Below the pieces are notes generated by a model. It was not told the origin of the DNA. It saw only the letters and a list, made by a program, of their open reading frames with translations, and did no database searches. Positions 5,493 through 41,600 of a DNA stretch of 59,575 bases are shown here, in pieces. Position numbers and translations under genes: made by a program. Within the stretch, counting starts at the first letter, position 1, and every line of letters starts with the position of its first letter. This DNA is from an uncultured Planctomycetia bacterium. Lineage in GTDB: Bacteria; Omnitrophota; Gorgyraeia; VGKN01. The stretch is taken from positions 1 through 59,575 of the forward strand of contig CAZDNS010000006.1 of NCBI GenBank assembly GCA_964506845.1. The letters are read 5' to 3'.

Positions 5493-5494
5493 TG

Positions 5495-15377: not shown

Positions 15378-15381
15378 AAAC

Positions 15382-15456
15382 GGGTCAACCTGTGCCTCTT
15401 TGGGTGCTTGTCTAAAAAGAGGGCTTTGCGCCTTTCTTAAAGGGTCAACCTGTGCC
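15382..15456 (-). repeat. 15-nt direct repeat flanking the read-through spacer
   Basis: gggtcaacctgtgcc occurs at 15382-15396 and 15442-15456, exactly 60 nt apart. It encodes AQVDP twice in the read-through frame. Confidence 0.8.
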
Positions 15457-15458
15457 TA
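15456..15458 (-). other. Single in-frame TAG separating the 466-aa and 911-aa ORFs
   Basis: 15378-15455 is 78 nt (26 codons) with no further stop. It translates as AQVDPLRKAQSPLFRQAPKEAQVDPF, directly in frame with MDEVEARV... Confidence 0.9.
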
Positions 15459-17322: not shown

Positions 17323-17397
17323 TTTTACTTGTGTCTTCTGACTTATACCTTATGACTTCTAATTTGTTGCTTGATTGTGACTTACAACAGGGTTAGT
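17323..17397. repeat. 7-nt-periodic degenerate spacer
   Basis: Minus strand reads GTAAGTC ACAATCA AGCAACA AATTAGA AGTCATA AGGTATA AGTCAGA AGACACA AGTAAAA. Confidence 0.5.
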
Positions 17398-18518: not shown

Positions 18519-21500
18519 CTACTTAGCTCCAAGCATTGCCCTGTATGAATTCAACTGGTCTGAATAACCTTGTGGAATATTTCCTGTTGGTATTAACGCG
18601 AAGGTTGTATCGCTAAGTTTTTTAACAAGCCCTTCTATTGGCGCATTTAAAGCTATGCTACGGACAGCAGGGAAAATACCTAAATTAGCCGTGTTTTCTG
18701 GAGCTTCATTTACCTGCAGGTTAAACAGATTTTCTCTCTCCAGTCTCCACCCATCTAAATATTCCTTAGTTCCAGCTCTAACTATCTTGTTATATTCTCC
18801 TGAACCCATAAGCTCTTCTATTCCCCTCTTGGTCTTTAACTGAACTTTTCCAGAAGAAACCAAATCTTTCAAACCTGCCAATTCTAAATAGCTATCTATT
18901 TCTCCCTCTTGTATTCCCTCTTTATCAACAACAACCGTTATTCCTTCATCGCTCGCTAACAAACTATTGATAGAAAGTTGCAAGCCAAGCGCCTGCGCCA
19001 GCATATGGGGCTGTAGAACGATAAGATTCCTAAATCCTTCTTTAGGTTTTTGAAAATTGGTGGCGTAATTAAACGTTAGCCAGTTATCAGTATTAATAAT
19101 GGTTTGGGCTCTATCCATAATAGAATTATAGTAAGCTGCGAATAATAGTAACGGGCCAAGCGGCGCTGGTGTGAGTGCTGCTGGCCACGTTGATAATATT
19201 GCTTCAAACTCACTCTTCGCATTACTTAAGACATTTATCACACCTTGAGGATTAGTATTAATAAGTTGCTCTGCCTTAAAAAGTTTCTGCATATGGTTTT
19301 CAAACTCCCAGCTTATATAAATAATGTTGGCTTCTTCGTTGTAAACGAGCGGTTCCTTTTGAGTCTTTGGACCCAAGAATATGTGGGCAGAGGTAATTGT
19401 CTCTGTTTCTGGTAATAGTTTAAGAAGAAGTTTCTGAATTTCTGAATTGGCAAACCAATCAGGCATAGTATCAACCTCTAAACCTCTCTGGTATTGAGCC
19501 TGCTTTCTATCAAGGATTTTATCTCTGTCAATTAAAGATGGGTCGTTTGTTCTCATTTTGGCAATATAAGCAGCTGTATTCGGCATATCTGGTTCTTCTG
19601 TGTCTCCTTTTGCTAATTCAAAGAACATCTTCGGATGCACCTCACCAATCGCATTGCTCAATATTGCACTTATTCTGGCATCAGCAGTTGATGGATAGGA
19701 TTTAATCCTTGCCTCGGTGCCGGATGGTCTGATTATCTCCCAGGTACCGTTACTAAATTCCATATAAACTGCATCCCCTGTAAAAAGATAACGTTGTAAA
19801 TCATCTATTTGTTTTAATAAATCCTCAAGTGCCTTATCATCAGTTACAGCCTTAATCTTTGCTACCATAACCTCATCCTTTACAAGGACTTCTTTTAGAA
19901 TCGCCTTCACATCATTTAATGTGATATTGCCACTTTCTAGGGCAAATGCTAAACTCAAAAAGAAGGCAAAATTGTTATCACGCCATTCAAAACCAACATC
20001 CAACATTTCTTTCCTTCTTTCAGGCGTAGCCTGCGCAGTAGCTAAGACATCCACAAGGTCTACATCTGTCCTGAGTTCTGCTGTATTTTGCATCTGTTTT
20101 TGTTCAATAATCTTTTGGAGCATATTGCTTAAAGATATATCTTGCAAGAATTCTGCATCTTGATATAGGCCTGTTTCATTTACACCGCGCTTTAAAGCAG
20201 CCTCCCTTGCTTTATTGAACCTTTTACTTATCATAATAAACGTAAGAACGCTTGCTTCAACAGCATTCTTTTCCCTCCAGCTTAAATACCTGCGCAAACC
20301 ATCTTCTGTAGTAAGTAGTTCTGTTGAGCCAACTACCATACCGCCCGATTCTTCTCCGGCGAACAATAACCGTGGATTATAGCCAAGCCTGATAGGATTT
20401 CCAAAAATATCGTGTATAACCACCATTCTTGGCTTAAGCCCAAGTTTATGCCTTACTTCATTTATCATAAGCTGTAATTCTACTTTCCGCATAATGGAGC
20501 CTATCTCTTTAAAACCAACTGGAACTTGAACCACAGGTATATCTTCACCATTAGATAATTCAAGCCATGCACTTGAAGAAACGGTTGTTTTTATTGAAAA
20601 AAATGTGGCTGCATTGGGATCTTCAATATTCTGGCTCCATTTTCCTTCTTCTTTAAGTTGTTCTATATAGGCATCCTGAATCTGAAGGAACGTCTGATTG
20701 GGCACATAAACCGCCAAAATCTTCTCATCTGAAAGAACTAAGTATGCTATATTTAAATGTTCTAATCTCTGCTTGGTTTCTTTATCATTTTTCTCCACCT
20801 GCATTAAAACAAATCTGTCTCCATCAGGGTCTGTGGTAGGGTATACAAAACCTATTGGCTGATTCAGCATAAAAACAGGTAATTTAGACGCTGCAACAAC
20901 CTGAAGTAAACTTACATCCTCGGAAATATCGGCCATTTTTGGTCTATAATAAGCAAGCAGATTGCTATTGGCAAGTTTTCGATAGGGCACGCCCAATCTT
21001 TTGAGTAGACCTTCCTCTTCTTTTGCATATATTTTAAATTTAATATTAACTACATCGTTTTCTTTGTCCTGTCTTGGTGTTTCGCCTATATTTGAAGCAA
21101 GCTCTCTTTCGGAAATTGTTGCCACTAACACGTAGGTTAAAGGAAGGTTTCCAAAGAATTCGTCAAGCCTTGTACTGATTTTTTCAACATATCTCTTTAC
21201 GAATTCATCTGGCGGCTGTTTCTGGTTAAAATCTGTCATACCCGTATCGCCAAAGAAAGAATCGGGTATTGTGCCTGTCCAGACTATTTTACCAACAGTC
21301 TCTCTATTAAAAACCTTCTCAAATACACCTCTAAAAAACTGGTAAGCAGAGCCCCTTGCTTGGTCAAATCCAATCTTCAAGCCATTAGCCAATGCCTCTT
21401 GGACGGCTTGTATATTTGAAGAAGTAACATATGAGCCCCTTAAATATTTTGCATATTTATCGCTCACGGGTATATTGTTAGCATCAACTGGACTTTCAAT

Positions 21501-24500
21501 ATCAAAATGAATATGCTCATCACTGCTGGATGCAAACTCTATAATTAAAGGCTTACCTGTTTCAAGAATATCATCTATCTTCCTGCCGATATTATCTGCA
21601 AGGGCTACCATATCTTCTATTAAAAGCTGTGCGCCCTCACTTCTCGCTCTTCTATAAGCCTTAACATCTATACCTAATTTCTCAAGATTTGCCTCAATAA
21701 AAGGAGAAATAGGCGGCCTCAAATTCCCCATCAATTTTGAAGCATAAATATTACGGGCAGAATGACTCGCTGTATCATACATTGTAAACATTATATTTAA
21801 TACAGTTGTAATAAAAGATGTGGCTCCTATGGGCAGATAGGTTCCTCGTGATGGGCTATGCACTATTATGCCTAATTTGGCAAATCTTCTGCGCAACATC
21901 TCGCTTACCAAAGGTGTGTTATATCTAACCTCACCACCTATTATTGTTTCTGTCATGGTTGCTTCTTGTTCGGCGGCAATTTTAAGTGCCGTCTCAGCCA
22001 ACTCATTGCCCAAAAGAAGTGTTAATAAAATATTCATAGGTGAATTTAGGTCAAAAGGAGCAAGTGGGTTTTGTGAATTTCTCATTCCGGCAACAGCAAT
22101 AGGCGCCATTGCTTTGACTACATCTGCCAGTCCTTTTTTGAGATTCCATTTTTCGGCAAGTTCTTTTGTAATCTCAAGTTTAAATGGGCCGCTGTTTGGG
22201 TCTTTCAGATGCTCAATAAGCGCTGCAAGTTCAGGATATTGCGTTCGCGCCTTTTCAGCCGCTTTTTCAAAACCTTTAAGAAATTCTATTTCAAGCTTTG
22301 CGCCAAAAATAAACCTCTGCATAAGCGGTGTGATTGAATATGCAGGTTCTTCATAAGTTAAACCATCTGCAATTTTTTTCTTCTCAGTTATAAGATTAGC
22401 TACAATCTGGCGAATCATCTCTCGCCTTGCAGCTGGCTCGCTGGCAGCAATTGAAATTCTCGTAACAGTTCCTATGTCAACATCTTCACTAACTAATTCA
22501 GCTTCAGAAACCTCAACAACTTTTTTGATTCCTTCTGATATGCCTGCCTGCTTATTCGGGTTTATTCGCATAAAAACCTGCGGCTTATCCTCCTGTTCAG
22601 GTCCCACAATCCAGAGCCCGTCGCTACAAACCATAAAACTCAGTTCACTGATTTTTATATAGGGTGGAAGGCTAACAGCTATCTGTTGAGCAAGCCCGTC
22701 AAAACCATCTTTAAATGTTTTCTCTAAGTATGGCAGTAAATCAACCAAGCGAATAGCAATCTCTGCGGCTTGTGGTAATTTTTGCCAAATCCCACCCATA
22801 GTTGACGGTTGGACAACTACCTTTCCCGGCGGGTCTTCATCGCCTTTAGCCATTGCCGTTATGTAGGAAGGTAATCCCCTCAAGTCTATTTTGGTTGAAA
22901 CTAACCTTTCAAAAGGAAGTTCGGGATTTTGTAATAAACCAAAAGCTTTTTGAAAATCAGGCGACTCTGCTCCATATGCACCACTAAGAAATAGCATTTT
23001 ATCATCAATCATAGCTCGTTCTTTGGTTTCATTCCTCCTTATCGAGTCTATATCTGCTCCAGCAAATATATCTCCTTTTCTTGTCCCGCCATAAAGATGA
23101 ATAACTCCATCATTAGTAATAAGTTGTGATGCCACTCTAAGGGTCTTGGGTGTAATCGCAGTAGGAACTACAATAACCACATCAAACTTTCCGCCATCCT
23201 CACCAAGATTTTCTTCTATACCTTCTTTGTTAAATAACTTGGTGCGACCATCAAATAATCCCTGTTTTCTTAAGAAGTCAAGCCGATTACTATCTATATC
23301 TAATGCAACTATCTCCTCTGCGCCAAGATTTTTGGCTAAAAGAAGATGCATTGTCCCAACGTTACCGGCACCAATAACAGCAACCCTTTTACCTCTTAAA
23401 TCACTAACTCCCATATGAGATAAAAGTTTATCTACGCTCCTGACAACACAAGCCAAGGGTTCTGACAATACAGCCTTTTCTAATGGGATTTCTTCGGGAA
23501 CAATATTAAGCGCCTCTTTCACTCTTGCGCCCCTTACGCTAAAATACTCTGCAAAGCCTGTGGTTCTATCTGGTGTAATATTTGGATTAAAGGTTATTCT
23601 GTCACCCACTTTAAATCCTGTATCCTTTCCAGCCGCAACTATCTCACCAACTAACTCATGGCCAAATAGTGGTCCTCTATCCTCTGGAATATCCCTTGAA
23701 CTCGTTACCTCTTTTACATCCGCCCTGCAAATTCCTGCCAGAGCAACCCTTACAATAACCTCGTCTTTTGCACATTTTGAAAGGTCTATTTGTTTTTCTT
23801 GGACCGTAACCACGCCGTTTTTCAATGCACAAAATTTACAATCAACCACAGAATCAGATCTACGACCTAATGAGTCTATCATATACTTTGTCAATCCCTC
23901 ACAAGCAGGGCCGTATTTGCCAAGAATTATAGTTATTCTATCCCTAAGACCAGCCAGGAAGGGATCATCATCTAGCGGTGTTTTTTCTGGAACCAATAAA
24001 CCTCTGGCTTTATCTGCATTGTTAATTTCTTCTGAAGAGGCATTGGCAATTCCACTTAACATCGCTACCAAACTTGACGGACTATCCTCGCCAACCAAGA
24101 TTTCCAACCCATCTATTTTCCTTCCTAATAATCCTTCTATCAAACCCCTATCAATTATCGCAGTAGTCACCACCCTCTTGTTAATACCTTCGATACCTGT
24201 ATCTAAAGCACCTGTTCCTGGTAATGATAAACCTAAATTAGTTAAAGCAATTCCTTTTTCTCTTTCTGTTTTCTTATAAAGGAACTGCAAGTATTCCTTC
24301 AAAGGTATTCGCAAATCATATTTTTCGTCACTAAGACTTAACTGAGGGATATTCGCTTCAGAATTTTGTTGATTAAAGTCACGGATTCTTCTATTTAACT
24401 CCTCAACAACCTGCTGTTTTTTTTGCCCTGCCAAGCTATTCAAAGCAGCATTACGACTATCAAACTCAAAGGTTACCTGAACTGGATGCCCCTGCTGATA

Positions 24501-27500
24501 CCCCCTGCGGTCATACCGCCTATCTACTCTCACCCGAGGTATGCTAACCTCAACAACCTCAGTGCTGTCTAAACTAAAAAATTCTGCTGCCTTATCTATT
24601 GCTGCCATCCATTCCCTTTCAAAACTCGCTCTACCTTCTTCATCTATTTTTCTTTCTTCGAAGAATTCGGCCACAAAATCAATAGCTGGTCTATCTACAA
24701 GATTGCCTTGCTCATCAAACGTATAAACTTGTTTACCGCCGCAATGCGCAATAATAATCTGCCTGCGTAGATGCGCTGGTAATATATCAACAACCCTGAG
24801 TAATAAATTATTTAAATCACCACCAGAAAGAATAACCAATATTCCGCCGCGACTTAGATATTTCGTAAGCAAAACATAGTTATCAGGGGAAAGCCGATAC
24901 TTTGCTGGCATGGGTTTCTTCCCTTTAATTATCTCTTCTAATTCCTCAGCGGATAAATCAATAACCGGCCATGTAAGAAACTGGTCATTGTCAAATATCA
25001 ATACATTTGTCCCTGGCATAACATCTTCTATCTCCTCATATCTCTGCTCTGCCTCTCTAAGGGCTCCGCTTGAGAAGAAAGCTTCAACTGTATCGCCTCT
25101 ACCAAAGATACGCGCTTGGCTAATAAGTTCAGCGCTTTTGGCAAAAATATCCGAGAGTGTCCTTATTGTAGCTTGGTCCAATTTATCAACCGTGATCACA
25201 ATAGTGGGAGATTTTGCTGCTAAAGCATTGGCATTTCCCTTTGCCAAGCCATAATTCACATCAGCAACACTTAACCCTATGTGATGTGGCGTATGCACAT
25301 CATCTACTTTCAATAGAGATTCTAATGCTTTGCCCTCTGGGCGTTCATAATCACGGGCAAGGATAAGAATATCTAAAAACCGCGCGCTTTGTCCTATAAC
25401 ACCTTCAATATATGAATGTGAATCAGTCGGAAGCTCTCCTGTAAAAACAATCATTCCATTTTTTCCGGATACACTTTCCTTAAATGCTCTTGTAAGTAGC
25501 TTTAAACTGCTGTTATTAACAAGGAAATTTATATACTGACGTGCGGGATCCTCAGCATAAGCCAACGCTAAAAAGGTTGCAAGCTGTATAGCCAACAAGG
25601 TTTTTTGATCGCCCTGAGCCTCTGCCCTTTGAATGATAGGAGAAATCTGTGCTTCAAATTGTTCTCTCCTTGCTTTCACAGCAGACTCGTTATAACTTGC
25701 TTCGCCTAATGATATATTCACATCTATTCCAAGCGCTTGCGCTGCGGTATTTAAAACGCCTGTTTTAACAAAAACATCCGCCTTCGCCACCCCTGCTTTT
25801 AAGCTAACTGCATTTTTATATCGTGGAGTAAGCCTTCCAAAAATGGGCAGATTTTGAATCTTGTTCGCCATACTTATGCTTCTTAACATTTTTGCATTTT
25901 CAGCAGAATCCACGCAAAACTTAAACGCATTAATAGCCTCATCAAATAATACTGCCAGCATATCTTCATAAGAAATGCCAATTTCTTCTGCCAATAGTGA
26001 AAATTGTTTCCATAAAGAAATAGCTGCTTCATCCGGTTTAACTTCTTCATCGCCACGAAGAATATCTGTCTCATCAGGTCGTCCTTTGGCAACAGGCAAT
26101 TCGCCTACTTCTACCGTAATCCTATGTCTTTCTCTCGTTCTCTCTCCCAATTGAGCTAAAGCCACAGCGCCTTCATTCCTGACCCTTCTTACCATAGGAT
26201 TTGAATAATGGTCCTGGTTCACCATATGGCTGTAAGAGGCGATTGTATCCTCAAACAGAGTTGTCAATTCAGCGCTAGATTCTATCGTCATTTTCTCTAT
26301 CTCTATAACTATAACTGGCATTCTCTGTTTTAAAGACTCTGCCTTCTTAGATGCCTCGGCATAACCTGGGTCGCTCTTATCTAAGAGAACTATTACTATA
26401 TGGTCATCAGCCATATTCTCTGCCACTCTATCAAGTGATTTATCGCCAGGGGGATAGATACTAAGCAGTGTGGGTGAAAGTGCCTCTGGTTTATTGACAC
26501 CCTCCATAACCCACTGCCTCAATTCTTTTGCCTTGGGCATTAGGCGCTCACTGCCGATAACCATAGCTATATTCTGACGTCTTCCTAAGCGCATATTGAC
26601 GTCAATAAATCGGGCAAGCTGAAAAGCAAAGCCGTCTTTTTTTGTGAAACTAAGTTTCTGGTCAGCCGTATCGGTCACCTCTACATATCTCTGTGTAATC
26701 TTCGGGCCAAAGGCTAAATAGAAAGGCCCATATACCATTTCCGTCTTTCGGCGCATAAACCTGCCTCCTATATTGCGTTTTGGGCTAAACGGAAAAACCC
26801 TTGCGCCTGCATCAGCAAAACGTTCTCCTAATATCTTAAGCGCACCCTGGTTAGCAAATGCAATATTATGCGTAAATTTATTATGCGTAAATCCAAGAAC
26901 TTTCTCTGTCTCGGTAGTTTCACCACTACGGGACAGATAAATCCACAGACTATTGTCATCTTGAATATCGGGATGTTCTGAAAGAATCCTTTCAAGCTCA
27001 ACAGGGTTATTGACTAAAATCAATCTCGGCCTCTTTCCAAGGGTGCCTCCTTCTCTCATTTCTTCCTGCAACCTCATCATTTCATGAAGTAGGAATTCAT
27101 TTGCTCCCATACCCATAACAAAGAGCCAGTCAACATTTTCAATGCCTCTAAAATGTTCCGCAACATATTCATCTAATTGTTCTGCTACAGCAGAAAATTC
27201 CTCGTTATAATATTCTTTAACCTCTCCACGATAATTTAAATTGCCTCTTCTTTCTTCCGGCTGGCTTTCTTTATTTTGCATAATATCCTGCACTTCACTA
27301 TGAAGCCTTCTGACAACTGCAAGTTCTTCTCTATCTACTATAACCTCATCCTTGGGCAGGCTTACGCTAATAGCTACGCCGTGTTTGGAATACCCAGAGA
27401 CCTTCTCAGCATCAACTAAATCGCCTGCTTTTAAACGGGTTTGCCTTTCTGCAGGTATGGTGGGAGGAACATCGGTTGCAGCAATTTGCTCTAATTTATA

Positions 27501-30500
27501 CCGGCTGACCAATCCTTTAAGTAACGGCTGTTTTGATAAAATGTTTAAAATATCCTCTGGGTTCTTTCTAGAAAGCTCAGCCAATCTGGTAATAAACACC
27601 TGCACAGCTGTGGCATTTAGCAGAATTTCTGTCAACTGGGAAGAGGGGAGCCCTGTTGTTTGCACAATTCTTGCAAACTCTTCGCTTACGGTTTGCAGTA
27701 AGGATTCAGAAGGCTTTGATACCGGAGCAGGATGGCCACTCCCAGAAGAAGTGCGGCTTGCAGCCATATCATTCAGTGTGCTAACATAATGTAAACTATG
27801 AAAGGCTTCGCTTACTCGTGGCTCGGCATTCTCTATCAATCTGGATAGCCGAGCGGAAATATCCTTAAACCTATCTTCTTTGTTTAAGGCACTTTCATCG
27901 GTGCTCAGACGGCCTAAAATGCGCACCTGCCCTTTTTCCATCTGATATGCTAAATCACCTGCCTCGACTAAAGATATAGCCTCTCCTGAAGCGGCAGGCC
28001 AATTGAGGAAAAAGTTAATGCCATCAATACTTCCTAAAGAGATATAGAAGCGCCTGTTGCGATAATCCTTATCTACAGCATAATATATCTTGCCTATGGA
28101 AACTTGGGTTTTAATCTCGTGTCTATCAATATTCTCTCTCTCATAGTGACGGAGATTATATAAAGGTAGCAGTATCTCATCCAGCGCCTCCTTATGCCTT
28201 AATAATATCTCTGCCATCTTTCGCTTTCCTTCAGCACTTAAGTCCCATACATTAGATATACTCCCCCTAAAATCATCTTGCAAAATCAAACCTTTAAGTC
28301 TTCTTAAAAGCTCCTCAGGGTTTGGTGGTTCTTTACTCTTTAAAAGATATACAAGCGGCGCCATTGCATCAGGGACAAGGTAAAAATCCTCGCCTGCCTT
28401 TCCCTGGTCAAAGCATAATGCCACAAAAATATCTCTTAACTTATCCAAAATCTGAGCTGCAATTTCAAAGTTACCTTTTTCTATTAAGCCCGTTTCTACA
28501 GCGCGCCCTGCCTGACGCAGCTCTTCCTGCATCATAAATCTGATAATTGCCTTCTTTTTATCCTCCGCATATTTATTCCAGTTCTTTTCCAAAAATGCAA
28601 AATAGGGCTGTCTTGCTAATTCTGGATGAGCCTTAAGCGCCGCTTCTAATTCTTCGCTGCGATTTTTCTTTAGCCAGGCGTAGAAGAGAAGGTCTTCATC
28701 CAAAGCAACCGATTCGGTGAGGTTAGCCTCGTGGTTTAAAAGCAATGTCTGCAGTATTGCGGGCAACATCGTCCATTCATCGTCTATCTCTAAGAACCCA
28801 TCCCCGGGATTTGAGATATAAAATTCATTGTCAGGGTCAACGAAAAATCTTGTTTTAAAAGAATATGAGCTACCAGGAAATCTACGAGCTGCATAAGAAG
28901 AATTTACCCCATGGGAGTTTAAGTAAGCCTGCCAGGTAGCAAGGGCTCCAGAAAGATTAGCATTTATTCGCCTGAGTTCTTCAGCGGTATACAAAGGCCG
29001 TGGTTCTTTGGCAAATTTATGACTAACCTTAACCAAACCTTCAACTACTAATTCTAACTGACCCTCGGCCTTATAGCTCTTATATACACCCTTTTCTTTA
29101 ACAACTGTTTTTCTTAAAGGCGCTCTATGAGCAACTGTAAGAGGGATAGTAGACGCATACACATATGCCTCGCGGGCTAAGCTCGGAGGTATGACTATTA
29201 AACAATTTTTATAACTACCTTCTTCTACAACCTCTTTAAGTAAGTCTCTTAAATAAACTAAATCTGATATCAAGACAATATTTTTTTCTCTTAGCCCAAC
29301 TACTTTCAATCCCGCCTCTTCTGCCCTTATAACCCTTGGGTCATCCTCAGTAACTTCGTCCGCAACTATTACATGCTTTACACCTGCCAACCTTAGAGCC
29401 TCTGCGGTAATATCAGAGGTATGGGCACCTGGTTTAAATGGAGAAAGCCATTTTATATCCACGGCCAATTCCATTCCATTAGGCAGTGTGGCTTGGTTTA
29501 AATCAAACAGGTCTGCTGGGCTTTCACCCCTTAGGGCGCGGTCAAAAAGCGATATATCTGTATCCGATACAGCAAAAAAGATACGGATATCATTTTCAAG
29601 GTCAATATCAGAAAGGTTTGCTTCAATAAATTTAAAAATATCCATTAGCTCTCTTAAATATGCGGCTTCCATTTTAGCGCCGCCAACCTCAGCCTTGAGA
29701 TTAAAACCCAAAGTCGGAATGCGGCCTGAAAAGGTTCCTGATTTTTTCTGCGCTCGCACTGTCTCAACTATAGCCCTTATCAGGCTAAGAGCGGCCTCTT
29801 TTGTAAGGGATGCTCCGCCAATAAGGCCGCCGTCAATATCAACCTCAACCATAAGGCCAGCGGCATTCTTTGCATTCATACTGCCGCCATACTGAATGAC
29901 CACTTTATCTGCATCGCCACCAACTAACTCCCTAAGTATTCCCTTGATAAACCCTTGCACCTCTTCTGCTTCTTGTGGCGTAGCGGGCCGTATGGCTTTT
30001 TCGCCAATAGCCCAAATCGGCTCATAGGCTATAATAGTGTTAAGAATCTGCTCTCTTGTACGACCGGCTAAACCATTAACTACCTGACTACGAATAAAGT
30101 TCCATCCTTCCTCTTTAAGTTTCCCTTCATTTGCATCGTCCTTTGGATAGCGCATCTCTGCTGGTTCGCCTACTGCCAACACATTAATACCACCCATTAT
30201 CCCATCAGCTTGCTTTAAAAGCGCATTGACATCTTCATCAGTCAATTCATGAGCAACTCTTGATTCAGAGTGGCCGCTTAGGATACCATCCGCGCCTAAG
30301 GATTTAAGAAGTTTTATGTTCGTTTTTTCGTTTGCCTGAGCCATAAGCCGCATAGGTCGGTAAAAATAACGAACTTCGCCATCCACGATTTCCTTTTTGA
30401 CTATCCATTTAGAGCGTGCCAATGCCTCCAATACCTCTTCTGCAGAATAACTCCCTGCTACTCCACTCTCCTCTAACTCTTTTACACTTAAAGACTTTCT

Positions 30501-33500
30501 TTGCTTTAAAATCTCAAAGACTCTATCTTCTGCAATTTTTAACAAAATATTGTTAATCCCTAAAATTAATTCAGTTAAATTTTTTGTTGAAAATGCTTCA
30601 AAAACTGAGGGGTGTTGGAAGGCGGGTAGATTTGCAATCTCATTAAGTTGTGCTTGTCGAGCCTCGAGTAAAATAAAGAATTTCTCGGTGGGGCGGTATT
30701 CTAAGCGTTGGCCTTTGTCTGTTTTGACCTTTTCTTTGGTGAAGAATCCTAAACTTGCAAGACCATCTAATTCCCATGTGAGGGTGGTGCGGGAGAAGGG
30801 CTTAGCTTCTCTTCTTGGCGCGCCGCGAGTCCTATGCAACTTTCTCCACCTCTTCTTTTTCCCATCCGTTTCAACATAACCATCAGTAGTAATAATAGAG
30901 TTCGCGTTAATAAGCCCCTTTCTCCCAGCCGAATACAAATCCAAAATTGCCTCTGCCAAAGAACCTTGAGTAGGTGTAGTCGGCACTGTCATTGCGTAGG
31001 ATTCTGTGGTTGTGTTTTGTGAGGTAATCTTAACATACTGCGCTGCCTCGCCATTTATAAGCGCCCTTGCAGCAAGTCCTGTCCTATCCCATTTATTCTC
31101 TCTATCCATACCCCAATAGCGGCCCATAGCATCAACTATTCTTCCAACGCCTAACTCATCGCACTTAGTTTGCAGTTCATCAAGATATTTCTTAGCGCTA
31201 TCAGGCGAAGTATCTCTGCCGTCTAAGAAGGCGTGTATAACAACCTGTTCACTCTTAAGACCTAAGCGTTTTGCCAATTCAAGAGTAGCAAACCAATGCT
31301 CCATTGAGGAATGAACATTTCCGTCGGACAAAAGCCCTAAAAGATGAAGGGTTGTACCTTTTTGTTTAACTTGTTGCATGGCCTGTACAAGAGTTTCATT
31401 TTGAAAAAACGAGCTATCTTGAATACTTTCATTAATTAGTTCACGGGCTGTCATTAACCTCCTGCCAGCACCTATTTCTCTATGACCATTTTCTGAACTT
31501 GGAATCTCTGAAGCCTTAAGCGAGGTATGCGGATATTGCTTCCAAAAAGTATCCATATTTGGTGTATTTGCCTGCGCAATGGCATTTCCCTCTGTCTCTT
31601 TCCTTATACCCCATCCATCAAGAACAATGGTTAATATCTTATTATGGGTCGTGTTAAGTGGGCTGGTAATTAGACTCTCTTGATCCATTTCCTGCGGCTT
31701 TTCAATTCTGCGCAGATGTAACAATGTAGGTGCAACATTTGTTAAGTTACCGCCTTCTCTAAGACTAACCTGTCCATCTAAACCAATAATGATAAAGGGA
31801 ACCGGATTTGAGGTATGAGAAGTAAGCAGTTTACCTGATTTATCAACCATCTGCTCTGCGTTACCGTGGTCGGCAGTAATAACAACAATATAACCTTGCC
31901 TCTTTGCCTCTTCTATAAGCCTTCCGAGTTGTTCATCAACTACCTCTATTCCTTTTTTGGCTGCCTCAAAATCACCCGTATGACCAAGCATATCCGCATT
32001 TGCAAAATTAAGAACAATGTCTTCAATGCCTGATCTCATATCGCTAATTACTGCATTCGCTAATTCGACTGCTTTCATCTCAGGCGCTGAATTATAAGTT
32101 GCCACTTGTTGGGAAGGAATAAGCCCCCATTCTTCTCCTTCTGATTTCTCCTGTTTTTCTCCATCTAAGAAATAGGTTACATGCTTAATCTTTGCATCCT
32201 CAGCCCTTCTCATCTGGCGGATACCATGCGCAGCAAGCACCTCGCCATAGGTATTTGTTAACGGTGGTGTCTTTAAAACTACTGGAACTGTAAAAGCACC
32301 GTCATATTGAGTCATTGTTACAAATTCTACTTGAGGTACTTTGCCACGCTCAACATCTCCAGCGCGGTCTTCATAATTCTGCCCTGTAAACCACCATATT
32401 AACTGACGTGGCCTATCTGTGCGGAAGTTTACGAAAAATAGAGTATCTCCATCTTTGACTCTACCTATCGGATTCCCGTCTTCGTCAACTACTACAATAG
32501 GCAGAACAAATTCATCTCCTTTAGCCTTTCCTTTAAAATGGTCTTCTACAAGTTTATATGCACTGGCCAAAACATCACTGATTCTCTTAACTAACTTAAC
32601 CTTCTTAGTCTGTTCTTCAATCTCTATCATTCTCAGATACTTAACCCTGCGGACTAATGGCTGTCCTTGGTACTGTCCACCTTCAGCAAAATCATATGGT
32701 GGCTGCGGGTCGCCTGTCTTCAATCCAAAGGCATTTGTGGCATACGCCAAGTCTGCAATACCATTATCCATGGTTTCGCCAGAGCGATGCGATATTATCC
32801 ATCCCATACCTGCACGTTTTGCAGCCTTTATAGCCTCTAATGTTCCATACATTGTTCCATTCTGATTTACCTTTATTAAAATATCCGTGGCTGCCTCCAT
32901 CTCTATCCCTTTATTTAAGCGTTGTAGCTGTGTCACAAATAAATCATCCCCGACTGTTCTAATGCCACGTTTTGTTCTAACGCCACGTCTCATCATTTCC
33001 TTTGTCAATTTCTGCCAGCCTTCCCAGTCATTCTCTGCTAAACCGTCTTCAATGGATATAATTTTTCCAGCATATTGCTCAGCCAATTGAACATAGTAAT
33101 CTATCATCTTGTCTGAAGTCCAAGCTTTGCCTTGAAAATTATATACTCCTCTGTCTTTATCATAGAAGGAGCTTGCTGCTACATCCAAAGCCAATTTCAC
33201 ATCCTCGCCAACTCTATAACCTGCTTTTTCTATGGCTTCAAATACATATCCGATTGCTTCTGTACTATTGCCTAATCCTTTAACTGAGAATCCTGCCTCA
33301 TCTGCACGCTTTATTGTTTTTGCATCAAATCTTCCCAATAATATCTCCTTTAAGGCACTGTCTATCATGTCGCCCATTTCTAATTGTTCACGATAACTCT
33401 TAGCGCCAACTGGAACTATCATTATCTCCTGAATATCTATGCGGTCTTTGCCTAATACTTCGCCTTCTGCTTTCTTTAAGGCGTGAAGGCCCCCATTATA

Positions 33501-36500
33501 GATATTCATATAGAAATACACTGGTTCTGTTTTATCGCTAACTGCATCGGGCTCGTATTTACGAATATATTCCCATAACTCCATTCCTTGTAACTTTGCT
33601 GCCATTTTCCACAATGCCCAAGAGACAGGAACAACAGCATTAGCGCCCAAAACTGCAAAATTCTCTCCTGCTTTCTCTATTATCAATTGTTCCATTTTTA
33701 TTAAGTCTTCATACTTTCTTAAATCTAACCCGCTTTGCATTAGCAATTGAGTAATTATCTCATTAACATTCCTGATAGCCTGTTCTGTGGTTACAGTCTT
33801 TGCCTCATCTTCACCTTTAGATGCACCTGCAGGCACAGTGCCAGTCACTTCAATATCGCCTAATCTCAGCACCGCTTCTACTGTTGATTTACCGCGAGAA
33901 TCAAAAGCCTCTCTTGCCACTAAGTTAAGTTGAATTGGCGCATTACGATTGATTAAGAACTGTATTTCTGGATACTCACCGGCTATTCCTTTAGCAGAAT
34001 CAACTTGTAATGTTCTCCAATTCAGTTGGCGAGGATGTTCAAAATTTTTGGGCTCATCATCTATTAATATTAATTCTTCGGCTGAGGTTATTCCAAATTC
34101 TCTTTTAAGTATTTTAAATGCTTCGTCAAATGCCTTTGACTCCGGTTTTAGTTCACCCAATTCTGCTGAGGTGATAATACGAACATTTTGTAAAAATGGA
34201 AATTTTTTCTTTAGATATTCCGCTCTCTCTTTTTCCATATTAGTAAGGATTGCTAAATTATAACCGCGCTCTGAAATGGCTTTAACTAACTCGGCAACTC
34301 CCGGGATTTCCTTGTATGCGTCATATAAATATAACTTAAGTGTTTCTTTACGCTTATCTTTGCCTAATTCAAAAAACTCTATTGCCTTCTTAGTTTTAGG
34401 TTTTCCTATGGTTTCTCTTAAAAGCTTATTTAACACATAAGACCAGTATTCATCTGCGGAAATCTTACCCAGCCTGAAGTCTTTTGCCTCATTGCTTGTT
34501 TGAAGCCACACGCGCAATGTATCTTCATCAACGCCAAATATCTTATTCATCTTATCTATACAATCATTAAGCCCGTCTGTCAGCAACGTCCCGGTTAAAT
34601 CAAAAAGGACGGTATTGACTTTGGATAACTCAGTTGTCAGCTCTTCTGTTGCCTCCCTTATAAGCTCTTGATAGAGCGGCTGTAACTCATCAGGAAGTTG
34701 GAAGCCTTTTGCTTCTATCTCTTTCAGGAATAAAACCCACCGAAGCGCCTCGCTTGCCCCATATCTATGGTGATAACTAAACATATCAACGATGACTTCT
34801 GGAGCAATGTTTAACCCTTTAAGAAATAGCTTCACCGCTTCAGGATTTGGAATCCGACCGATTGGAGTATCAATTGCTTCTACTTTCATACCTTCAAACT
34901 TACCCGCCATTGCTAGTGCAAGCATAATGAGCCGCACATCCTGACGAAAACCTGGCCAACCTTTTCGGAATTGGTCAAAATGGAAAAAGGCAGGAGCTTT
35001 GCCATTTTGTTTGGCTTGTTTCATAACATAAAGCCAAGTATCAAGATGCTGCCGTTCAGTAGTGGCATAGAATGGCCTTAATGCAAATGGATCTGGCCTT
35101 CGTCTTCCGACTACAGCGCCTTCAACGGCAAATGTTTCCTCTGGAGCCATAAAGAATGCATCTAATATTGCTCTCTCAGGAGTATTCAGTTGGACAAGCG
35201 GAGGTTGCCCGTCTGGAATTTTGCCGCCAAAGAAAATCGCATCAATCCGTCCGCCTTTATGCCAATTGGGTGAGCGGGTTTCAAGATTTACCTTGTTCAA
35301 TGTGAAACGGGCATTTGGATGAGCCCATTTTTCACCCCGTTTGCCTTGTGGGCGTTCTGCAATAGGTTGACCTGTCCAATCCTGCCATCCCTCCAGGCTC
35401 TTTGGAGGAGTGTCTGTTTCACCTTTTACCCAGCGCTCATATTGCTCTAACTCACTCACGTCAATTGGCACAGTATCAGTTAATTCCTCCCACCATACTT
35501 TACCTGTCTTTCGGTTAATGGCAGTGTTAGTAAAGATTACGGGTTTATTTCCAGGTTTAACTTTTGGGCTGAGTGTAGCCTCAACAAGCCTTGCGTTCGT
35601 TCTGGGGCTTGTTTTTGGTGCCACAGCAAAAAGCCCGTCCTCGGGATTTGCACCCACAAGATAACCCTCCTCATCAAACCACATACCTACTAGGTCATCG
35701 CTGATTGTAAGAACCTCCCAATCATCCGCTAATTCATCAGGAGGAAGATAGGTTGCAAACGTGCTTTTACCTGAGGCGCTTGGACCGAATAACATAATAC
35801 GGTATGTTTTGCTGGTTTTCTTATTTATTAATTCAATTAAAGCCGCATGCTCTGCCAGCACAAGCGTATTCGGAGGTATTGACTCTCCTTTATCGCGAGC
35901 TCGTTTTACATTTTGATACGCTATATACTGGGCTAAACGAAGCCCAAATTTCTTTGGACCTAAGAGATTGCCGCCATAGGCTGACCCAAAAAGGCCAACC
36001 TCTCTCTCTTTTGGAAATTCAACAAACAATCTGTCCTCTGGTTCATCAGGCTTAGTGGCTCGTCTAATTTTATCCAAATCTCCTGTGGAGTGCCAAATTT
36101 TTAAAACCTCATCCGGATTAGCCGAATTAAGCTTCTGTAATGCACTATCGCCAATAACCGCCTGTCCGACTTTAACCAGTTCCAATAAACTTATCGCCCC
36201 ATAGATACTGTCTGTAACCTGCACACCCACCATCTCAATCGGAGAACCTGGGAACATAATAAATGGTATTACATACATCTTCTTTCCTTTATAGCTTCCA
36301 TACGCCCTATCTTTAAGCTGTTTTTTTGCTTCATCTGCATGCATCCAGTTATTAAAAATTCCCTTATCAGCTGGGTCGTCAGTCGCAATATGGGTCGGAG
36401 CTTCGGCGCGGGCAGTATCCTTTGGATGAGACCTATGATGGTAATTACCATCGGGAAGCGCGGTTAAAACTCCTTCCTTAACAGCAAGGTCAAAAAGACG

Positions 36501-38625: not shown

Positions 38626-41600
38626 TTATATCGCCAGCTTCATATTCATTTTCTTCATAGCGGTTTTGGTTATGGCTACAGGTTTTTTCAAAATTCGCAT
38701 CATTTGTTCTTCGCTAAACAATGGAATCTTTTTCCCATCATAAAGCTCAACCATATTCAGCAAATCCACCATCAGATGGTCCTGACCCAACTGCTCATCA
38801 TCTATCCTGCAGAAGGATATTATTTTTTTCTTGGCATATTCCATAAGATAATCATAGATTCTTATGTAGTTACCTATGGAGCTTATGCTGAAACCTATCT
38901 GGTCTTTCCCTTCGCCAAGTTCAAACCCCGCCTGTTCTAAAAACTCAATGGCAGATTTCAGTATCTTTGGATTGTGCGCCATATTTAACTGAATTGCCAC
39001 TTTATCTCTTCCATGTTCGTTGATTGACTTTTTCGTTGCCCTTAGAAACATTATGAACACTTCGTTATATCCGGGCGACATATTCTTAATAAGCCCTCTA
39101 AAACCTAATGGCGAATTTGTGGTTGACCTTTCATATCTATCGCCAAATTTAAGACCTTTAAGCAATACTTGACCACCTACAGTGCTACCTTTGAAAAAAT
39201 CTGGCTCCTGCTGCGAGGTCTCAAAAACCACTAATTCCCCCTTTTCTGTTGCTTCTCTTACTGCCGCATCAATGTGTTCTTTGACCACTTTATTAATAAA
39301 ATCTTGAATGGAGCTCGCCTCATATCTCCCTAATAACTCTTCCACAGCTCTAACGGTATCTCTCTCTACGGCTTCGTCAATTACTATCCCCTTTTCTTTC
39401 TGAAAAGCCCTCAAGTCATTATAGGCCTCTTCGAATGTCTCTTTTGCAAGTCCTGATAATTGTCCAGTTTTGTAGAGATAAATAGCAAAAGCAAAAGGAT
39501 GTAAACCTAATTCGACAAATATATCATCCATGCTTACTACTTTAACATTTACCTTCTCAGGCTCTGCAGTATAATCTATATTTTCAGGAGTAAATATAGT
39601 GTTGTCTACAATCTTCTCGGTATAGAGTTTTATGCTCTTTTCTAAATACACAAAACCTCTCTGAAAATCAACCACATAGTCTCTATTATCTTCTAAAGCC
39701 CTGAAAGGATCCTGAGCAGTATCAACAAGAATAGCGGGTTTTCGCCAGTTTACTCTTAACCACTCCATGACAGGAGAATCCTCTCTAACACCACTTGTTA
39801 TAATCCCGCTTGCCTTTGAAAGCTGTATAGCAAGAATGCTTTCTTTTTTAGCATCTGTCTCTGTAAAATCCACATCTGGACCCAAGATAACGATATCCCC
39901 CTCAACAATCTTTGGCACTTCAACTTTTTTACCATCCGGCAATTTTTCTAAATATGTTAAATCTCTATTGTTTTTTATAAAAACTACTCTGCGTAATGCA
40001 GCGCCCTTTTGCTCCTCTCTAAGTTTTTTGCCTGTTACTATCTTAGTTAGTGGTCCGACATCCTTTGAATCTATATAATTTGTTTCTAAGTGGCTATCTG
40101 CTGTGAGGCTGACAGTCTGACCAAATGCAGGGATACTAGTTCCAACAGAATCCAATACTGCGACTATCTGCATAGCGGCTCTTCTGGCTTCAGGGGTGGG
40201 TTTTCTTAGCAAGTTTATTATGGCATTACCGCATAAACCCAGTGTAAAATCCACCAATGCCTCTCCTGTCTTTGGGTCTGTAAATTCCTCTTCAATAACT
40301 CTCTTTGCCTCAAGCGCGCTATGTAATATAGCGTCTATAACCTCTGGGTCTCCTTCGTCAAAGACTGATATCTCGCTGACCTTATCTGTTCCTGGAATAT
40401 ATATTTTTGTCTTTTTGAATCCCTTCTCATCCCTGTCTGCCTTTTTAACGGACTGGGTAAGGTCATTTGTCCCATATGAAAAGAAGGTATGGACATTGTA
40501 TTTCCTGGCAAAATTAGCCAGAATTCTTGCGTAATCAGCTGCCAGAGGAACGTTATTTCCAAGCTCAAGCATCATACCTATATATGGAGGAAGCTCTATC
40601 TCACCTGCTTCATAAAGTTTTGCTATCCTATCTAAACCCTTCTCTAAATCCTCGGGCGACCTTAAGAACACAAAGAAGAATCCAAACGTTCCCACATTTG
40701 TCCCCTTTGTGGCTTTTATGGCATCGTTCATAGCCTTAAGTTGAATATCCACGGCATAGATATTCTCATCCCTGACCTCAAGGCCTGTGCCTCTGTCACC
40801 CACCATAGAAGCCCTCTCCTCATTGTAAAATAACTCGGCACCAATCAAATCTTTTATAATCTCGTTCTTTTTAAAATCCCTTGCCCTGACTAAAACCAAT
40901 TGTTCTGGTGTAACTGTTCTTGCCAAGCCAATAAAATGTGCCTTTAGTTTATCTCTCAGATATGCCTCTGCTGTGGGATAGCCTGCTATCTTTTCTCTGA
41001 TTTTAGCCTGTATATCCTTTCGCGGTCTTAACTTCTCTACATCCGCCATCATTCTCTTTTGCCTTGCTATTTCTGCTGGTCCTTGGGGATTTTCTAATAG
41101 GTAGAGTTGCTTTTTATTGGCTCTTAAAATAGCCAATTCCCAGAGTTGTTCTCTTATCCTGTTATTCTTATGTAATTTTATACCCCGTAAAAGCCCCATA
41201 GTGTACTCAACTGGTCCAACAACCTCTCCTCCTTCGGAAACGGCAAAGTTCCTTATTGTCTCTTCATTATCCAACAGGTCTTCCACATTGGCTATTATCC
41301 ATTCTCGCCTTTCCTCTCTCGGCACCTCAAGCCATTCGCCGTTAATCTCTATCTTAGAAGGCCCGAGCTCAGTCTTATCCAAGATTATATTAAGTGCACC
41401 TTCAAGTTCCTCTTTTGCTGTAATCAACTCCGCTTCTAAACCTTCTAACTCTTTTAAACGTGCCAAAATCTTCTCCTTATTATTGAGAATCTGTAGATTG
41501 TCATAGGCCTCGCCTGCCCTGAAATCCACTCCGATAGCTAAAAGTGCCTCTTCTATTCTATCGAGACTGAATCCATAATAACCGCTTAGTTTTTTCTTTA

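What the first reader, a model, noticed from the sequence alone, without database searches (positions are those of the whole stretch)
31047..32564. Circularly permuted cofactor-independent phosphoglycerate mutase
Residues ~2001-2299 align with the C-terminal ~290 residues of canonical iPGM: 'DEFVLPIVV', 'NFRTDR', 'ADMLGHTG', 'ITADHGNAE', 'HTSNPVP', ending '...ESLI' like the native C-terminus. A ~10-residue linker (TSPLNTTHNK) follows. Then residues ~2310-2506 align with the canonical N-terminal ~215 residues: 'ILTIVLDGWG', the catalytic Ser context 'SSENGHREIGAGR', 'LLSDGNVHS', 'FLDGRDT', 'MDRENKWDR'. The native termini both lie in the phosphatase domain, so joining them and opening the chain elsewhere is structurally plausible. 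I am not aware of a described permuted iPGM.
Basis: partly seen in the sequence, partly recalled or inferred. Interest (0 to 1): 0.7.

Follow-up and report, generated by a model that had tools for sequence, protein, structure and literature searches.

The report
Circularly permuted phosphoglycerate mutase domain
A 6,681-residue multi-enzyme gene of an Omnitrophota bacterium contains a phosphoglycerate mutase whose two halves are in swapped order; this rearranged form looks intact, is widespread in bacteria, and appears never to have been described.

Summary
On the minus strand, residues 2005-2300 of a 6,681-aa ORF (window 18519-38564) match canonical cofactor-independent phosphoglycerate mutase (iPGM, PDB 1EJJ) residues 219-510. 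A 9-residue linker follows, then residues 2310-2510 match canonical 6-213. Nothing is lost or duplicated, and all 16 catalytic, metal and substrate residues I checked are kept. An AlphaFold model is confident (pLDDT 90, pTM 0.86) and its best structural matches are all iPGM crystal structures.

The permutation is not unique to this window. A junction-specific DNA pattern found at least 84 permuted iPGM genes among the first 120 hits in species-representative genomes. They include complete genomes of cultured bacteria ([Clostridium] asparagiforme, Syntrophus buswellii) and other giant ORFs. NCBI's curated iPGM model (TIGR01307) scores them above its cut-off, so they would be named ordinary iPGM. 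I found no paper describing the permutation.

The host ORF fuses glutamate dehydrogenase, PEPCK, a HAD hydrolase, enolase, the permuted iPGM, TIM and a phosphoglucomutase-like region. It belongs to the multi-enzyme giant-protein class already reported for Omnitrophota. Activity is inferred, and a unique 8-9-residue deletion beside the catalytic serine leaves some doubt.

Verdict: a real and moderately interesting, undescribed topological variant of a known enzyme.

The parts
18519..38564 (-). Host ORF, 6,681 aa. Pfam domains in order: glutamate dehydrogenase (res 239-640), GTP-PEPCK (665-1285), HAD hydrolase (1317-1519), enolase (1548-1953), permuted iPGM (2005-2510), TIM C-terminal part (2750-2931), zinc-ADH-like (~4930-5230), phosphoglucomutase-like (~5520-6290).
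32706..33923 (-). Enolase module directly upstream of the iPGM module (Enolase_N plus Enolase_C, colinear).
   Evidence: It is 70% identical to the enolase modules of Omnitrophota multi-domain proteins P0241/P0398.
32553..32705 (-). Connector of about 51 residues between enolase and the new N-terminus of the iPGM module.
   Evidence: Boundaries. The model shows a helix at model residues 2-21, with low-to-moderate confidence (block-mean pLDDT 49-70).
31665..32552 (-). First segment of the iPGM module (res 2005-2300), equal to canonical residues 219-510. It comprises the last third of the transferase domain plus the C-terminal part of the phosphatase domain. It carries R261, R264, K336, D403, H407, D444, H445 and H462 (1EJJ numbering).
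31638..31664 (-). Nine-residue linker (SPLNTTHNK) joining the canonical C-terminus to the canonical N-terminus.
   Evidence: Linkers of similar length occur in all permuted homologs. The junction pattern matches the window once, at 31609-31736.
31035..31637 (-). Second segment of the iPGM module (res 2310-2510), equal to canonical residues 6-213. It comprises the N-terminal part of the phosphatase domain plus the first two thirds of the transferase domain. It carries D12, S62, H66, H123, R153, D154, R185 and R191.
31494..31496 (-). Codon of Ser2357, the equivalent of the phosphoserine nucleophile Ser62. Immediately upstream in the protein, 8-9 residues (1EJJ 48-56) are missing.
38265..38336 (-). 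The only transmembrane-like or signal-like hydrophobic segment of the host ORF (res 77-100).
38208..38234 (-). LAPPLFLGK motif after the hydrophobic segment. The same motif follows the N-terminal hydrophobic segment of four other metabolic ORFs of the window.

Best explanation
The interval encodes a genuine circular permutant of cofactor-independent phosphoglycerate mutase, embedded as one module of a 6,681-aa multi-enzyme protein of an Omnitrophota bacterium.

Shown: the chain order is transferase part 2 (canonical 219-~310), phosphatase part 2 (~311-510), a 9-residue linker, phosphatase part 1 (6-~76), then transferase part 1 (~77-213). The phosphatase domain therefore becomes contiguous and the transferase domain is split. 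All of the canonical sequence is present exactly once.

Inferred: both inter-domain hinges are left untouched. The module therefore most likely works like canonical iPGM. That mechanism is Mn2+-dependent transfer of the phosphate of 3-phosphoglycerate to the catalytic serine (here Ser2357) and back to the other hydroxyl after domain closure, interconverting 3PG and 2PG.

Inferred: because enolase is fused directly upstream and PEPCK lies further upstream, the module probably handles the 2PG made or used by its neighbour within a pathway-ordered polypeptide.

Inferred: the module was probably recruited already permuted, from the pool of stand-alone permuted iPGM genes found in many bacteria. 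The permutation itself most plausibly arose by fusion of a tandem gene pair followed by trimming of both ends. Such tandem pairs exist in nature, but no link to the permuted genes was demonstrated.
For: - Swapped, complementary, non-overlapping matches to 1EJJ with E-values of 1e-57 and 1e-66, reproduced by BLASTP. TIGR01307 scores above its cut-off in two stretches.
- 16 of 16 metal, nucleophile and substrate residues are conserved in a 237-sequence alignment.
- The AF2 model has pLDDT 90.3 and pTM 0.86. Its top 22 Foldseek PDB hits are all iPGM. RMSD is 2.4-2.5 A over 278 colinear columns and TMq is 0.47-0.48, as expected when a sequential aligner can use only about half of a permutant.
- The same topology and the same breakpoint (canonical ~212-220) occur in 16 of the 146 iPGM-like proteins examined from the protein searches.
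- The same topology occurs in at least 84 of 120 genomic loci found with a junction-specific pattern. Of these, 63 are complete single ORFs with a median of 532 aa, including complete genomes of cultured bacteria.
- One stand-alone homolog sits directly after a pgi gene.
- In 200 of 200 NJ bootstraps the window sequence's nearest clade consists only of permuted sequences.
- Other giant ORFs carry the same permuted module: P0351, P0343 (where it is next to enolase) and Elusimicrobia locus L022.
- Tandem canonical iPGM gene pairs occur in 25 loci.
- Host organism and protein class: PNPase is 81% identical to that of an Omnitrophota MAG, and the multi-enzyme giant-protein class is described in bioRxiv 10.64898/2026.06.07.730766.
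Against: - No enzymatic or expression data exist.
- The window's module alone lacks 8-9 residues of a near-universally conserved loop just before the catalytic Ser. This is seen in 1 of 237 sequences, apart from one degenerate paralog.
- Foldseek is not permutation-aware, so the full two-domain superposition was not done.
- The alignment used for the model was partly built from split fragments of canonical proteins.
- The host ORF starts with a signal-like hydrophobic segment. If this leads to export, the enzyme would be away from cytoplasmic substrates.
- GAPDH and PGK, the next pathway steps, are not detectable in the ORF.
- Monophyly of all permuted iPGMs was not recovered (0 of 200 bootstraps, crude NJ). 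A single origin is therefore unproven.
- The halves of permuted genes show no special affinity to present-day tandem copies.
Confidence: 0.8

Rival explanations
1. The module is permuted but is no longer a phosphoglycerate mutase. It would be an inactive structural spacer or a phosphatase/phosphotransferase with another substrate, altered by the deletion next to the catalytic serine.
For: - There is a unique 8-9-residue deletion in the otherwise near-invariant loop preceding Ser62.
- H125 of the VHSH motif is Ser.
- Identity to any homolog is no more than 49%.
- The alkaline-phosphatase superfamily readily changes specificity (general knowledge).
- The largest permuted clade has itself changed D154 to G or S in 71 of 71 members. 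Functional drift therefore does occur among permuted forms.
Against: - All 16 catalytic, metal and substrate residues are retained, including every 3PG/2PG-binding arginine and D154.
- The model is confident through the shortened loop, with pLDDT 87-98 at model residues 340-380.
- The module sits beside enolase, the enzyme that uses its product.
Confidence: 0.17
2. The permutation arose in place, by duplication of an iPGM module inside the giant gene, rather than being inherited from a stand-alone permuted gene.
For: - Modules are clearly shuffled among related giant proteins.
- An Omnitrophota 2,349-aa protein (P0384) carries a canonical-order iPGM module.
- The weak NJ tree does not unite all permuted sequences.
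Against: - The breakpoint and linker position are the same as in dozens of stand-alone genes from many phyla.
- The nearest neighbours of the window module are always permuted sequences (200/200).
- No remnant of a duplicated half flanks the module.
Confidence: 0.08
3. The apparent permutation is an artefact: a misassembly, a chimeric contig, or two unrelated partial gene fragments read through.
For: The window is a metagenome-derived contig. No near-identical copy of the giant ORF was found elsewhere, so the junctions are not independently confirmed for this organism.
Against: - A single stop-free frame runs for 20 kb, with strong in-frame domain hits on both sides.
- The two halves are exactly complementary.
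- The identical topology is found in at least 84 independent genomes, including finished chromosomes.
Confidence: 0.02

Closest known systems
Canonical cofactor-independent phosphoglycerate mutase (GpmI/iPGM; TIGR01307; Pfam PF01676 with nested PF06415; structures 1EJJ, 1O98, 1O99)
   Same: - 41-49% sequence identity over both halves.
- The same 16 active-site residues.
- The same predicted folds for both domains.
- Both hinge segments intact.
   Different: - The chain starts at canonical residue ~219 and ends at ~213, with the native termini joined by 9 residues.
- An 8-9-residue deletion precedes the catalytic Ser.
- It is a module of a 6,681-aa protein rather than a ~510-aa monomer.
Stand-alone permuted iPGM genes in public genomes. 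Examples: [Clostridium] asparagiforme DSM 15981 NZ_CP102272.1 (locus L072), Syntrophus buswellii DM-2 NZ_CP175563.1 (L108), Butyricicoccus pullicaecorum ET57 (L011), NCBI MCK5535057.1 (P0257), and P0267 next to pgi.
   Same: - The same breakpoint, linker position and module length.
- A single colinear alignment to the window module over residues 28-523 of the 531-residue query (giant residues 1990-2520).
   Different: - They are separate ~510-600-aa genes.
- The large clade (71 sequences, bootstrap 191/200) has D154 changed to G or S and other motif changes, and is only 32-40% identical to the window module.
- The window groups loosely with P0257, P0259 and modules of other giant ORFs.
Multi-enzyme metabolic giant proteins of Omnitrophota (bioRxiv 10.64898/2026.06.07.730766; West-Roberts et al. 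2023, bioRxiv 10.1101/2023.11.21.568195)
   Same: - The same phylum.
- Many distinct metabolic Pfam domains tile one polypeptide.
- An N-terminal signal or transmembrane segment.
- HAD and phosphoglucomutase domains are typical content.
   Different: - At 6.7 kAA it is below the 10-kAA threshold of that survey.
- That preprint does not mention gluconeogenesis or gene fusion and names enolase only as a genome-level marker gene. I did not search either preprint for phosphoglycerate mutase or permutation.
Known fusions of glycolytic enzymes, e.g. the PGK-TIM fusion protein of Thermotoga maritima (from my own knowledge, not checked here)
   Same: Consecutive or nearby pathway enzymes are joined in one chain. 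Relatives found here carry TIM-(GAPDH)-PGK-enolase.
   Different: The scale is far larger (at least 8 enzyme modules), the protein has a signal-like leader, and one module is circularly permuted.
Natural circular permutants explained by the duplication-and-trimming model, e.g. DNA methyltransferases and swaposins (from my own knowledge)
   Same: The sequence is cleanly rotated, with the native termini joined by a short linker. Tandem gene pairs, the postulated intermediate, occur in nature for iPGM.
   Different: No intermediate linking tandem pairs to permuted genes was found.

Membership tests
iPGM / GpmI (TIGR01307 equivalog) | Whole-protein score above the curated cut-off of the family model. 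| tested here: met
   512.9 bits against a cut-off of 330.65, summed over two stretches. NF003897 is not reached (413.7 against 862).
iPGM / GpmI | Catalytic Ser nucleophile plus the two-metal site (D12, S62, D403, H407, D444, H445, H462). | tested here: met
   All are present at the aligned positions. The residue list comes from my knowledge of the 1EJJ literature.
iPGM / GpmI | Substrate-binding residues (H66, H123, R153, D154, R185, R191, R261, R264, K336). | tested here: met
   9 of 9 are conserved.
iPGM / GpmI | Canonical chain order: phosphatase part 1, transferase domain, phosphatase part 2. | tested here: not met
   The order is rotated, with canonical 219-510 preceding 6-213. This is the finding itself.
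iPGM / GpmI | Two-domain fold with the active site at the interface. | tested here: inconclusive
   The model is confident (pLDDT 90.3, pTM 0.86). The colinear half fits 1EJJ at 2.5 A. No permutation-aware superposition of the whole module could be run.
iPGM / GpmI | Mn2+-dependent 3PG/2PG mutase activity. | not testable with these tools
   This needs an enzyme assay.
Permuted iPGM group (defined here) | New N-terminus at canonical ~214-220, and native C- and N-termini joined by a short linker in one ORF. | tested here: met
   The module aligns colinearly with 8 permuted homologs. The junction DNA pattern matches once in the window, against 0 expected by chance.
Permuted iPGM group (defined here) | Common descent of all permuted members. 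| tested here: inconclusive
   NJ gives a clade of 71 with 191/200 support. The window-containing clade of 7 has 18/200 and the union of all permuted sequences 0/200. The window's nearest clade is always permuted.
Omnitrophota multi-enzyme giant proteins | Omnitrophota origin, with many different metabolic domains tiling one very long polypeptide. | tested here: met
   PNPase is 81% identical to that of an Omnitrophota MAG and the flanking genes are syntenic. At least 8 enzyme families lie in one ORF. The length is below the 10-kAA limit used in the preprint.

The most novel reading that the evidence does not exclude
The permuted iPGM is one working station of a pathway-ordered set of central-metabolism megaproteins. 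The set comprises a PPDK-like ORF, the giant ORF (GDH-PEPCK-HAD-enolase-iPGM-TIM...PGM), an FBP aldolase/phosphatase and a PutA+GDH ORF. All carry the same Sec-like leader plus an LAPPLxLGK motif. On this reading they are co-targeted, either tethered together on the membrane as a channelling metabolon or exported or injected to act on a host or prey cell's metabolites. The leader-plus-motif would then be a previously unrecognised sorting or processing signal of Omnitrophota.
Probability: 0.15. Interest if true: 0.85.

Novelty: new variant of a known kind. Interest (0 to 1): 0.5.

Why it matters
iPGM is a textbook glycolytic enzyme and a drug target in nematodes and trypanosomatids. Its two-domain hinge mechanism is well studied.

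A natural, widespread form exists in which the chain is rotated so that the inserted domain and the host domain swap roles. It gives a ready-made test of how chain connectivity affects domain closure and folding. It also gives a clean case for studying permutation by gene duplication, because tandem gene pairs and permuted genes both exist.

Practically, these genes would be annotated as ordinary GpmI, because they score above the cut-off of TIGR01307, the curated model NCBI uses to name iPGM. Pipelines that expect colinear domain order, or that split two-stretch hits, can mis-handle them. The largest permuted clade also carries a fixed D154 to G/S change that may signal a different activity.

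For Omnitrophota, the finding shows that the giant multi-enzyme proteins are assembled from modules of diverse origin and contain apparently intact catalytic sites.

Tried and rejected
- **Plus-strand reading of the interval.** It contains only stop codons.
- **Close relatives of the giant ORF.** The search for related loci with the unique region (res 3100-3700) found nothing in genome contigs or metagenome contigs. The syntenic Omnitrophota MAG contig ends before the giant gene. An exact look-up of the neighbouring FBPase found only a 2.8-kb contig.
- **Profile search with an alignment of permuted sequences.** It was swamped by canonical iPGMs and added only two permuted proteins, P0428 and P0441.
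- **First AF2 model, 17-row alignment.** It was mediocre (pLDDT 71; RMSD 8.7 A to 1EJJ) and was superseded.
- **First NJ tree, 145 sequences.** It scattered the permuted sequences. Denser sampling resolved one robust clade but not overall monophyly.
- **Test of descent from present-day tandem pairs.** There was no signal.
- **Possible second permutation in the TIM module.** The only evidence is a weak Pfam hit (E = 0.063) and a non-significant pairwise score using TIM sequences I recalled from memory (z = 2.2).
- **Region res 3601-4131, which I read as SIS/PGI-like.** It has no Pfam or PDB sequence match, so it is left unassigned.
- **Literature.** Searches combining circular permutation or 'permuted' with phosphoglycerate mutase, iPGM or alkaline phosphatase superfamily found nothing relevant. 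The main evolutionary survey of bacterial PGMs does not contain the word 'permut'.
Full report
**Where the finding lies.** The interval 31047-32564 is non-coding on the plus strand. On the minus strand it is residues 2001-2506 of one uninterrupted ORF, 18519..38564, 6,681 aa. Pfam finds the following in order in that ORF:
- glutamate dehydrogenase (res 239-640)
- GTP-dependent PEPCK (665-1285)
- a HAD hydrolase (1317-1519)
- enolase (1548-1953)
- the iPGM-like region
- the C-terminal two thirds of triosephosphate isomerase (2750-2931)
- a zinc-ADH-like domain
- a phosphoglucomutase-like region

The neighbouring genes on the same strand are a 2,133-aa PPDK-like ORF, two class-V FBPase (FBP aldolase/phosphatase) ORFs and a 2,295-aa PutA+GDH ORF. 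Ordinary bacterial housekeeping genes follow. The PNPase is 81% identical to that of an Omnitrophota MAG whose flanking genes are syntenic. The window is therefore an Omnitrophota contig.

**The observation.** phmmer against PDB sequences gives two strong, swapped matches to G. stearothermophilus iPGM (1EJJ). Giant residues 2005-2300 match chain 219-510 (5.8e-66). Giant residues 2310-2510 match chain 6-213 (5.2e-57). Only canonical residues 1-5, 214-218 and 511 are unaligned, so the rotation is clean, with no loss or duplication. BLASTP with a canonical iPGM finds the same two segments and nothing else in the ORF. TIGR01307 is exceeded (512.9 against 330.65 bits) in two stretches. In Pfam terms the cut lies inside the nested iPGM_N (phosphotransferase) domain, at about profile position 145 of 217. 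The chain order is therefore transferase part 2, phosphatase part 2, the linker SPLNTTHNK, phosphatase part 1, transferase part 1.

**Integrity of the module.** In a 237-sequence alignment the window module keeps all 16 residues I checked: D12, S62, H66, H123, R153, D154, R185, R191, R261, R264, K336, D403, H407, D444, H445 and H462. The numbering is that of 1EJJ and the list comes from my knowledge of the 1EJJ literature.

A first AlphaFold model with a shallow alignment was mediocre. A 47-row alignment was then built from natural permuted homologs plus split halves of canonical proteins. With it, the model reached pLDDT 90.3 and pTM 0.86. Foldseek against the PDB returns iPGM structures as the top 22 hits. 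The match to 1EJJ/1O99 covers 278 columns at RMSD 2.4-2.5 A with TMq 0.47-0.48. That is what a sequential aligner can achieve on a permutant, because 278 of 531 is 0.52. A permutation-aware superposition could not be run.

One oddity remains. The window module lacks 8-9 residues (1EJJ 48-56) just before the catalytic serine. Among the 237 sequences this is otherwise seen only in one degenerate paralog.

**The permutation is not unique.** An exhaustive HMMER search of 1.84 billion cluster representatives used giant residues 1540-2739 as query. It returned several proteins that match the whole iPGM module in one colinear stretch. BLAST against a canonical iPGM shows that 16 of the 146 iPGM-like proteins examined have the same rotated order, with the same breakpoint at canonical 212-220. 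They align colinearly with the window module. They include:
- stand-alone proteins of 514-602 aa
- NCBI MCK5535057.1, annotated simply as iPGM
- a sequence from a Salpingoeca helianthica (choanoflagellate) transcriptome set (EukProt)
- modules inside two other giant proteins: P0351 (5,027 aa) and P0343 (4,312 aa, where enolase follows the module)

One stand-alone gene lies immediately after a pgi gene.

I then wrote a DNA pattern that requires the iPGM C-terminal motif, a short gap and the N-terminal LDGWG-type motif in that order. It matches the window once, with none expected by chance, and it matches the known permuted loci. The 120 loci break down as follows:

| Category | Loci |
|---|---|
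| Clearly permuted iPGM genes | 84 |
| Probably permuted but cut by the locus edge | about 6 |
| Tandem pairs of canonical iPGM genes | 25 |
| No iPGM match | 2 |

Sixty-three of the permuted genes are complete single ORFs with a median length of 532 aa. By record title they come from:
- Anaerolineae, Aminicenantes and many Clostridia
- Syntrophales, Thermoanaerobaculaceae, Elusimicrobia and Omnitrophota
- Phycisphaerales, Gemmatimonadota, Bipolaricaulota, WOR-3, Zixiibacteriota and Kosmotogaceae
- one Hodarchaeota MAG

Isolates or finished genomes are among them: [Clostridium] asparagiforme DSM 15981, Syntrophus buswellii DM-2 and Butyricicoccus pullicaecorum ET57. The Elusimicrobia locus L022 has the module inside an ORF longer than 2,666 aa. 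NCBIfam has no separate model. Permuted proteins pass the TIGR01307 equivalog, so they would be named ordinary iPGM.

**Relationships.** A simple neighbour-joining analysis of un-permuted sequences gives three results:
- One large, purely permuted clade of 71 sequences has 191/200 bootstrap support.
- The window module falls in a weakly supported group of seven (18/200). Its partners are P0257, P0259/P0391, P0377 and the giant-ORF modules L022 and P0351.
- The window's nearest clade is made only of permuted sequences in 200/200 replicates, but monophyly of all permuted sequences is never recovered.

The large clade carries D154 changed to G or S in 71 of 71 members. The window group keeps D154. 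An Omnitrophota MAG (L009) has a large-clade-type gene that is only 40% identical to the window module. The halves of permuted genes show no special similarity to the first or second copies of present-day tandem pairs.

My reading is that the module was already permuted when it was recruited into the giant gene. The number of origins of the permutation is open. Duplication followed by trimming is plausible but not demonstrated.

**How it most likely works.** The sequence, the conserved site and the model all point to a normal iPGM mechanism: a phosphoserine intermediate on Ser2357, two Mn2+ ions, and closure of the two domains. The cut leaves both hinge segments intact. It places both chain ends, and hence the attachment points to the upstream enolase and the downstream spacer, on the transferase domain.

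The order PEPCK, enolase, iPGM ... TIM ... PGM matches the order of the gluconeogenic pathway. So do the flanking PPDK-like and FBP aldolase/phosphatase genes. This suggests hand-over of intermediates between fused neighbours. That is inference, and GAPDH and PGK are not detectable in this ORF. Related proteins carry TIM-(GAPDH)-PGK-enolase fusions.

**Comparison with what is known.** Multi-enzyme metabolic giant proteins of Omnitrophota are described in a 2026 preprint. West-Roberts et al. noted PPDK domains in giant proteins. The host protein therefore belongs to a known class. For the permuted iPGM I found no description. Six literature searches returned nothing relevant. The main evolutionary survey of bacterial PGMs does not mention permutation and calls iPGM paralogs rare. 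The library searched excludes most subscription journals, so absence is not proof.

**Verdict.** The permutation is real, clean and apparently functional, but it is a member of a widespread, unremarked natural group rather than a one-off. I rate it a new variant of a known kind with moderate interest (0.5). The stranger observations lie around it: the shared signal-like leader and motif on five metabolic megaproteins of the locus, and the pathway-ordered fusion itself.

Noticed in passing
window 38208-38336, 44878-44904, 16701-16727, 12188-12214, 5164-5190 (all minus strand): Five metabolic ORFs share an N-terminal leader. They are the giant ORF, the PPDK-like ORF, the 466-aa FBPase_3 ORF, the PutA+GDH ORF and the ORF running off the left end. 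The leader has basic residues, then a ~20-aa hydrophobic, Sec-signal-like helix (AxA-like sites in two of them), then 15-25 residues later the motif L[AV]P[PQ][LI]xL[GDE][KE]. The motif occurs exactly 5 times in the six-frame translation and 0 times in 100 shuffles. It may be a common tethering, export or processing signal for central-metabolism enzymes.
   Followed up: partly
window 18519-38564 (-), with neighbours 38626-45027, 12642-16856, 5495-12382: The module order of the giant ORF (GDH, PEPCK, HAD, enolase, iPGM, TIM..., PGM-like) follows the order of gluconeogenesis from amino acids. So do the flanking PPDK-like, FBP aldolase/phosphatase and PutA+GDH genes. GAPDH and PGK are not detectable. 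About 2,500 residues have no family match, mainly 3100-4900 and parts of 5230-5980.
   Followed up: partly
window 29205-30317 (-), giant residues 2750-3120: The TIM match covers only profile positions 76-244, including the GHSE and YEPIWAIG motifs. A weak hit to TIM positions 61-89 lies about 110 residues downstream of the C-terminus of the match (E = 0.063), and by eye a beta-1-like 'GFNLK' precedes it. This hints at a second permuted or partly duplicated enzyme, but pairwise tests were not significant. In related fusion proteins Pfam also sees only TIM positions 118-244.
   Followed up: partly
window 31497-31520 (-), giant residues ~2349-2356: An 8-9-residue deletion (1EJJ 48-56, 'CGEAVGLPE') lies immediately before the catalytic Ser of the iPGM module. 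It is unique among 237 iPGM sequences, apart from one degenerate tandem copy.
   Followed up: yes
loci L008, L012, L020, L025, L026, L029, L030, L034, L035, L038, L042-L044, L052, L055, L056, L062, L064, L084, L093, L100, L104, L105, L121, L123: These loci hold tandem pairs of full-length canonical iPGM genes on the same strand, 10-40 nt apart. By record title they come mostly from Patescibacteria/CPR MAGs and from MAGs labelled Gammaproteobacteria. This is the gene arrangement from which a permutant could arise, although Foster et al. 2010 call iPGM paralogs rare. No phylogenetic link to the permuted genes was found.
   Followed up: partly
71 permuted iPGM sequences, mostly from loci L006-L125 (e.g. 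L072 2792-4327 (-), L108 236-1774 (+), L009): The large, well-supported permuted clade (191/200) has D154 replaced by G or S in 71 of 71 members. Other motifs also change: NFRPDR becomes xxRGERE, LDGRD becomes xGRRG or DGRS, and GGVHSH becomes xSSHGS. This is possibly a subfamily with an altered reaction or substrate, although these proteins still pass the TIGR01307 cut-off and would be named GpmI.
   Followed up: partly
window 30348-31034 (-), giant residues 2511-2739: The spacer between the iPGM and TIM modules has no family match. By eye it contains winged-helix-like repeats (e.g. 'VFEILKQRKSLSVKELEE...EVRYFYRP'). It may be a structural linker or a binding module.
   Followed up: no
window 16933-17349 (-) and L001 215-607: A small ORF between the giant gene and the FBPase gene corresponds to a gene carrying Pfam 23S_rRNA_IVP/bAvd hits on an independent Logan contig from SRR4343426. 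That contig carries the identical FBPase. This four-helix-bundle family is also used by diversity-generating retroelements.
   Followed up: no
window 47588-49186 (-) and P0351 residues ~90-140: The 532-aa ORF has a signal-like N-terminus and a 'LQDLHCNY...VNCEG' segment. That segment resembles the N-terminal region of P0351, the 5,027-aa giant protein that also carries a permuted iPGM. This similarity was seen by eye only.
   Followed up: no
window 1-5304 (-): Another large ORF (at least 1,768 aa) runs off the left end of the contig. It has the shared leader and only Fer4_20 plus Pyr_redox_2 hits (glutamate-synthase small-subunit-like or DPD-like) around residues 707-867.
   Followed up: partly
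P0377 (EukProt, Salpingoeca helianthica transcriptome): A 599-aa permuted iPGM is recorded for a choanoflagellate transcriptome. It could be a eukaryotic gene acquired from bacteria or contamination from bacterial prey.
   Followed up: no
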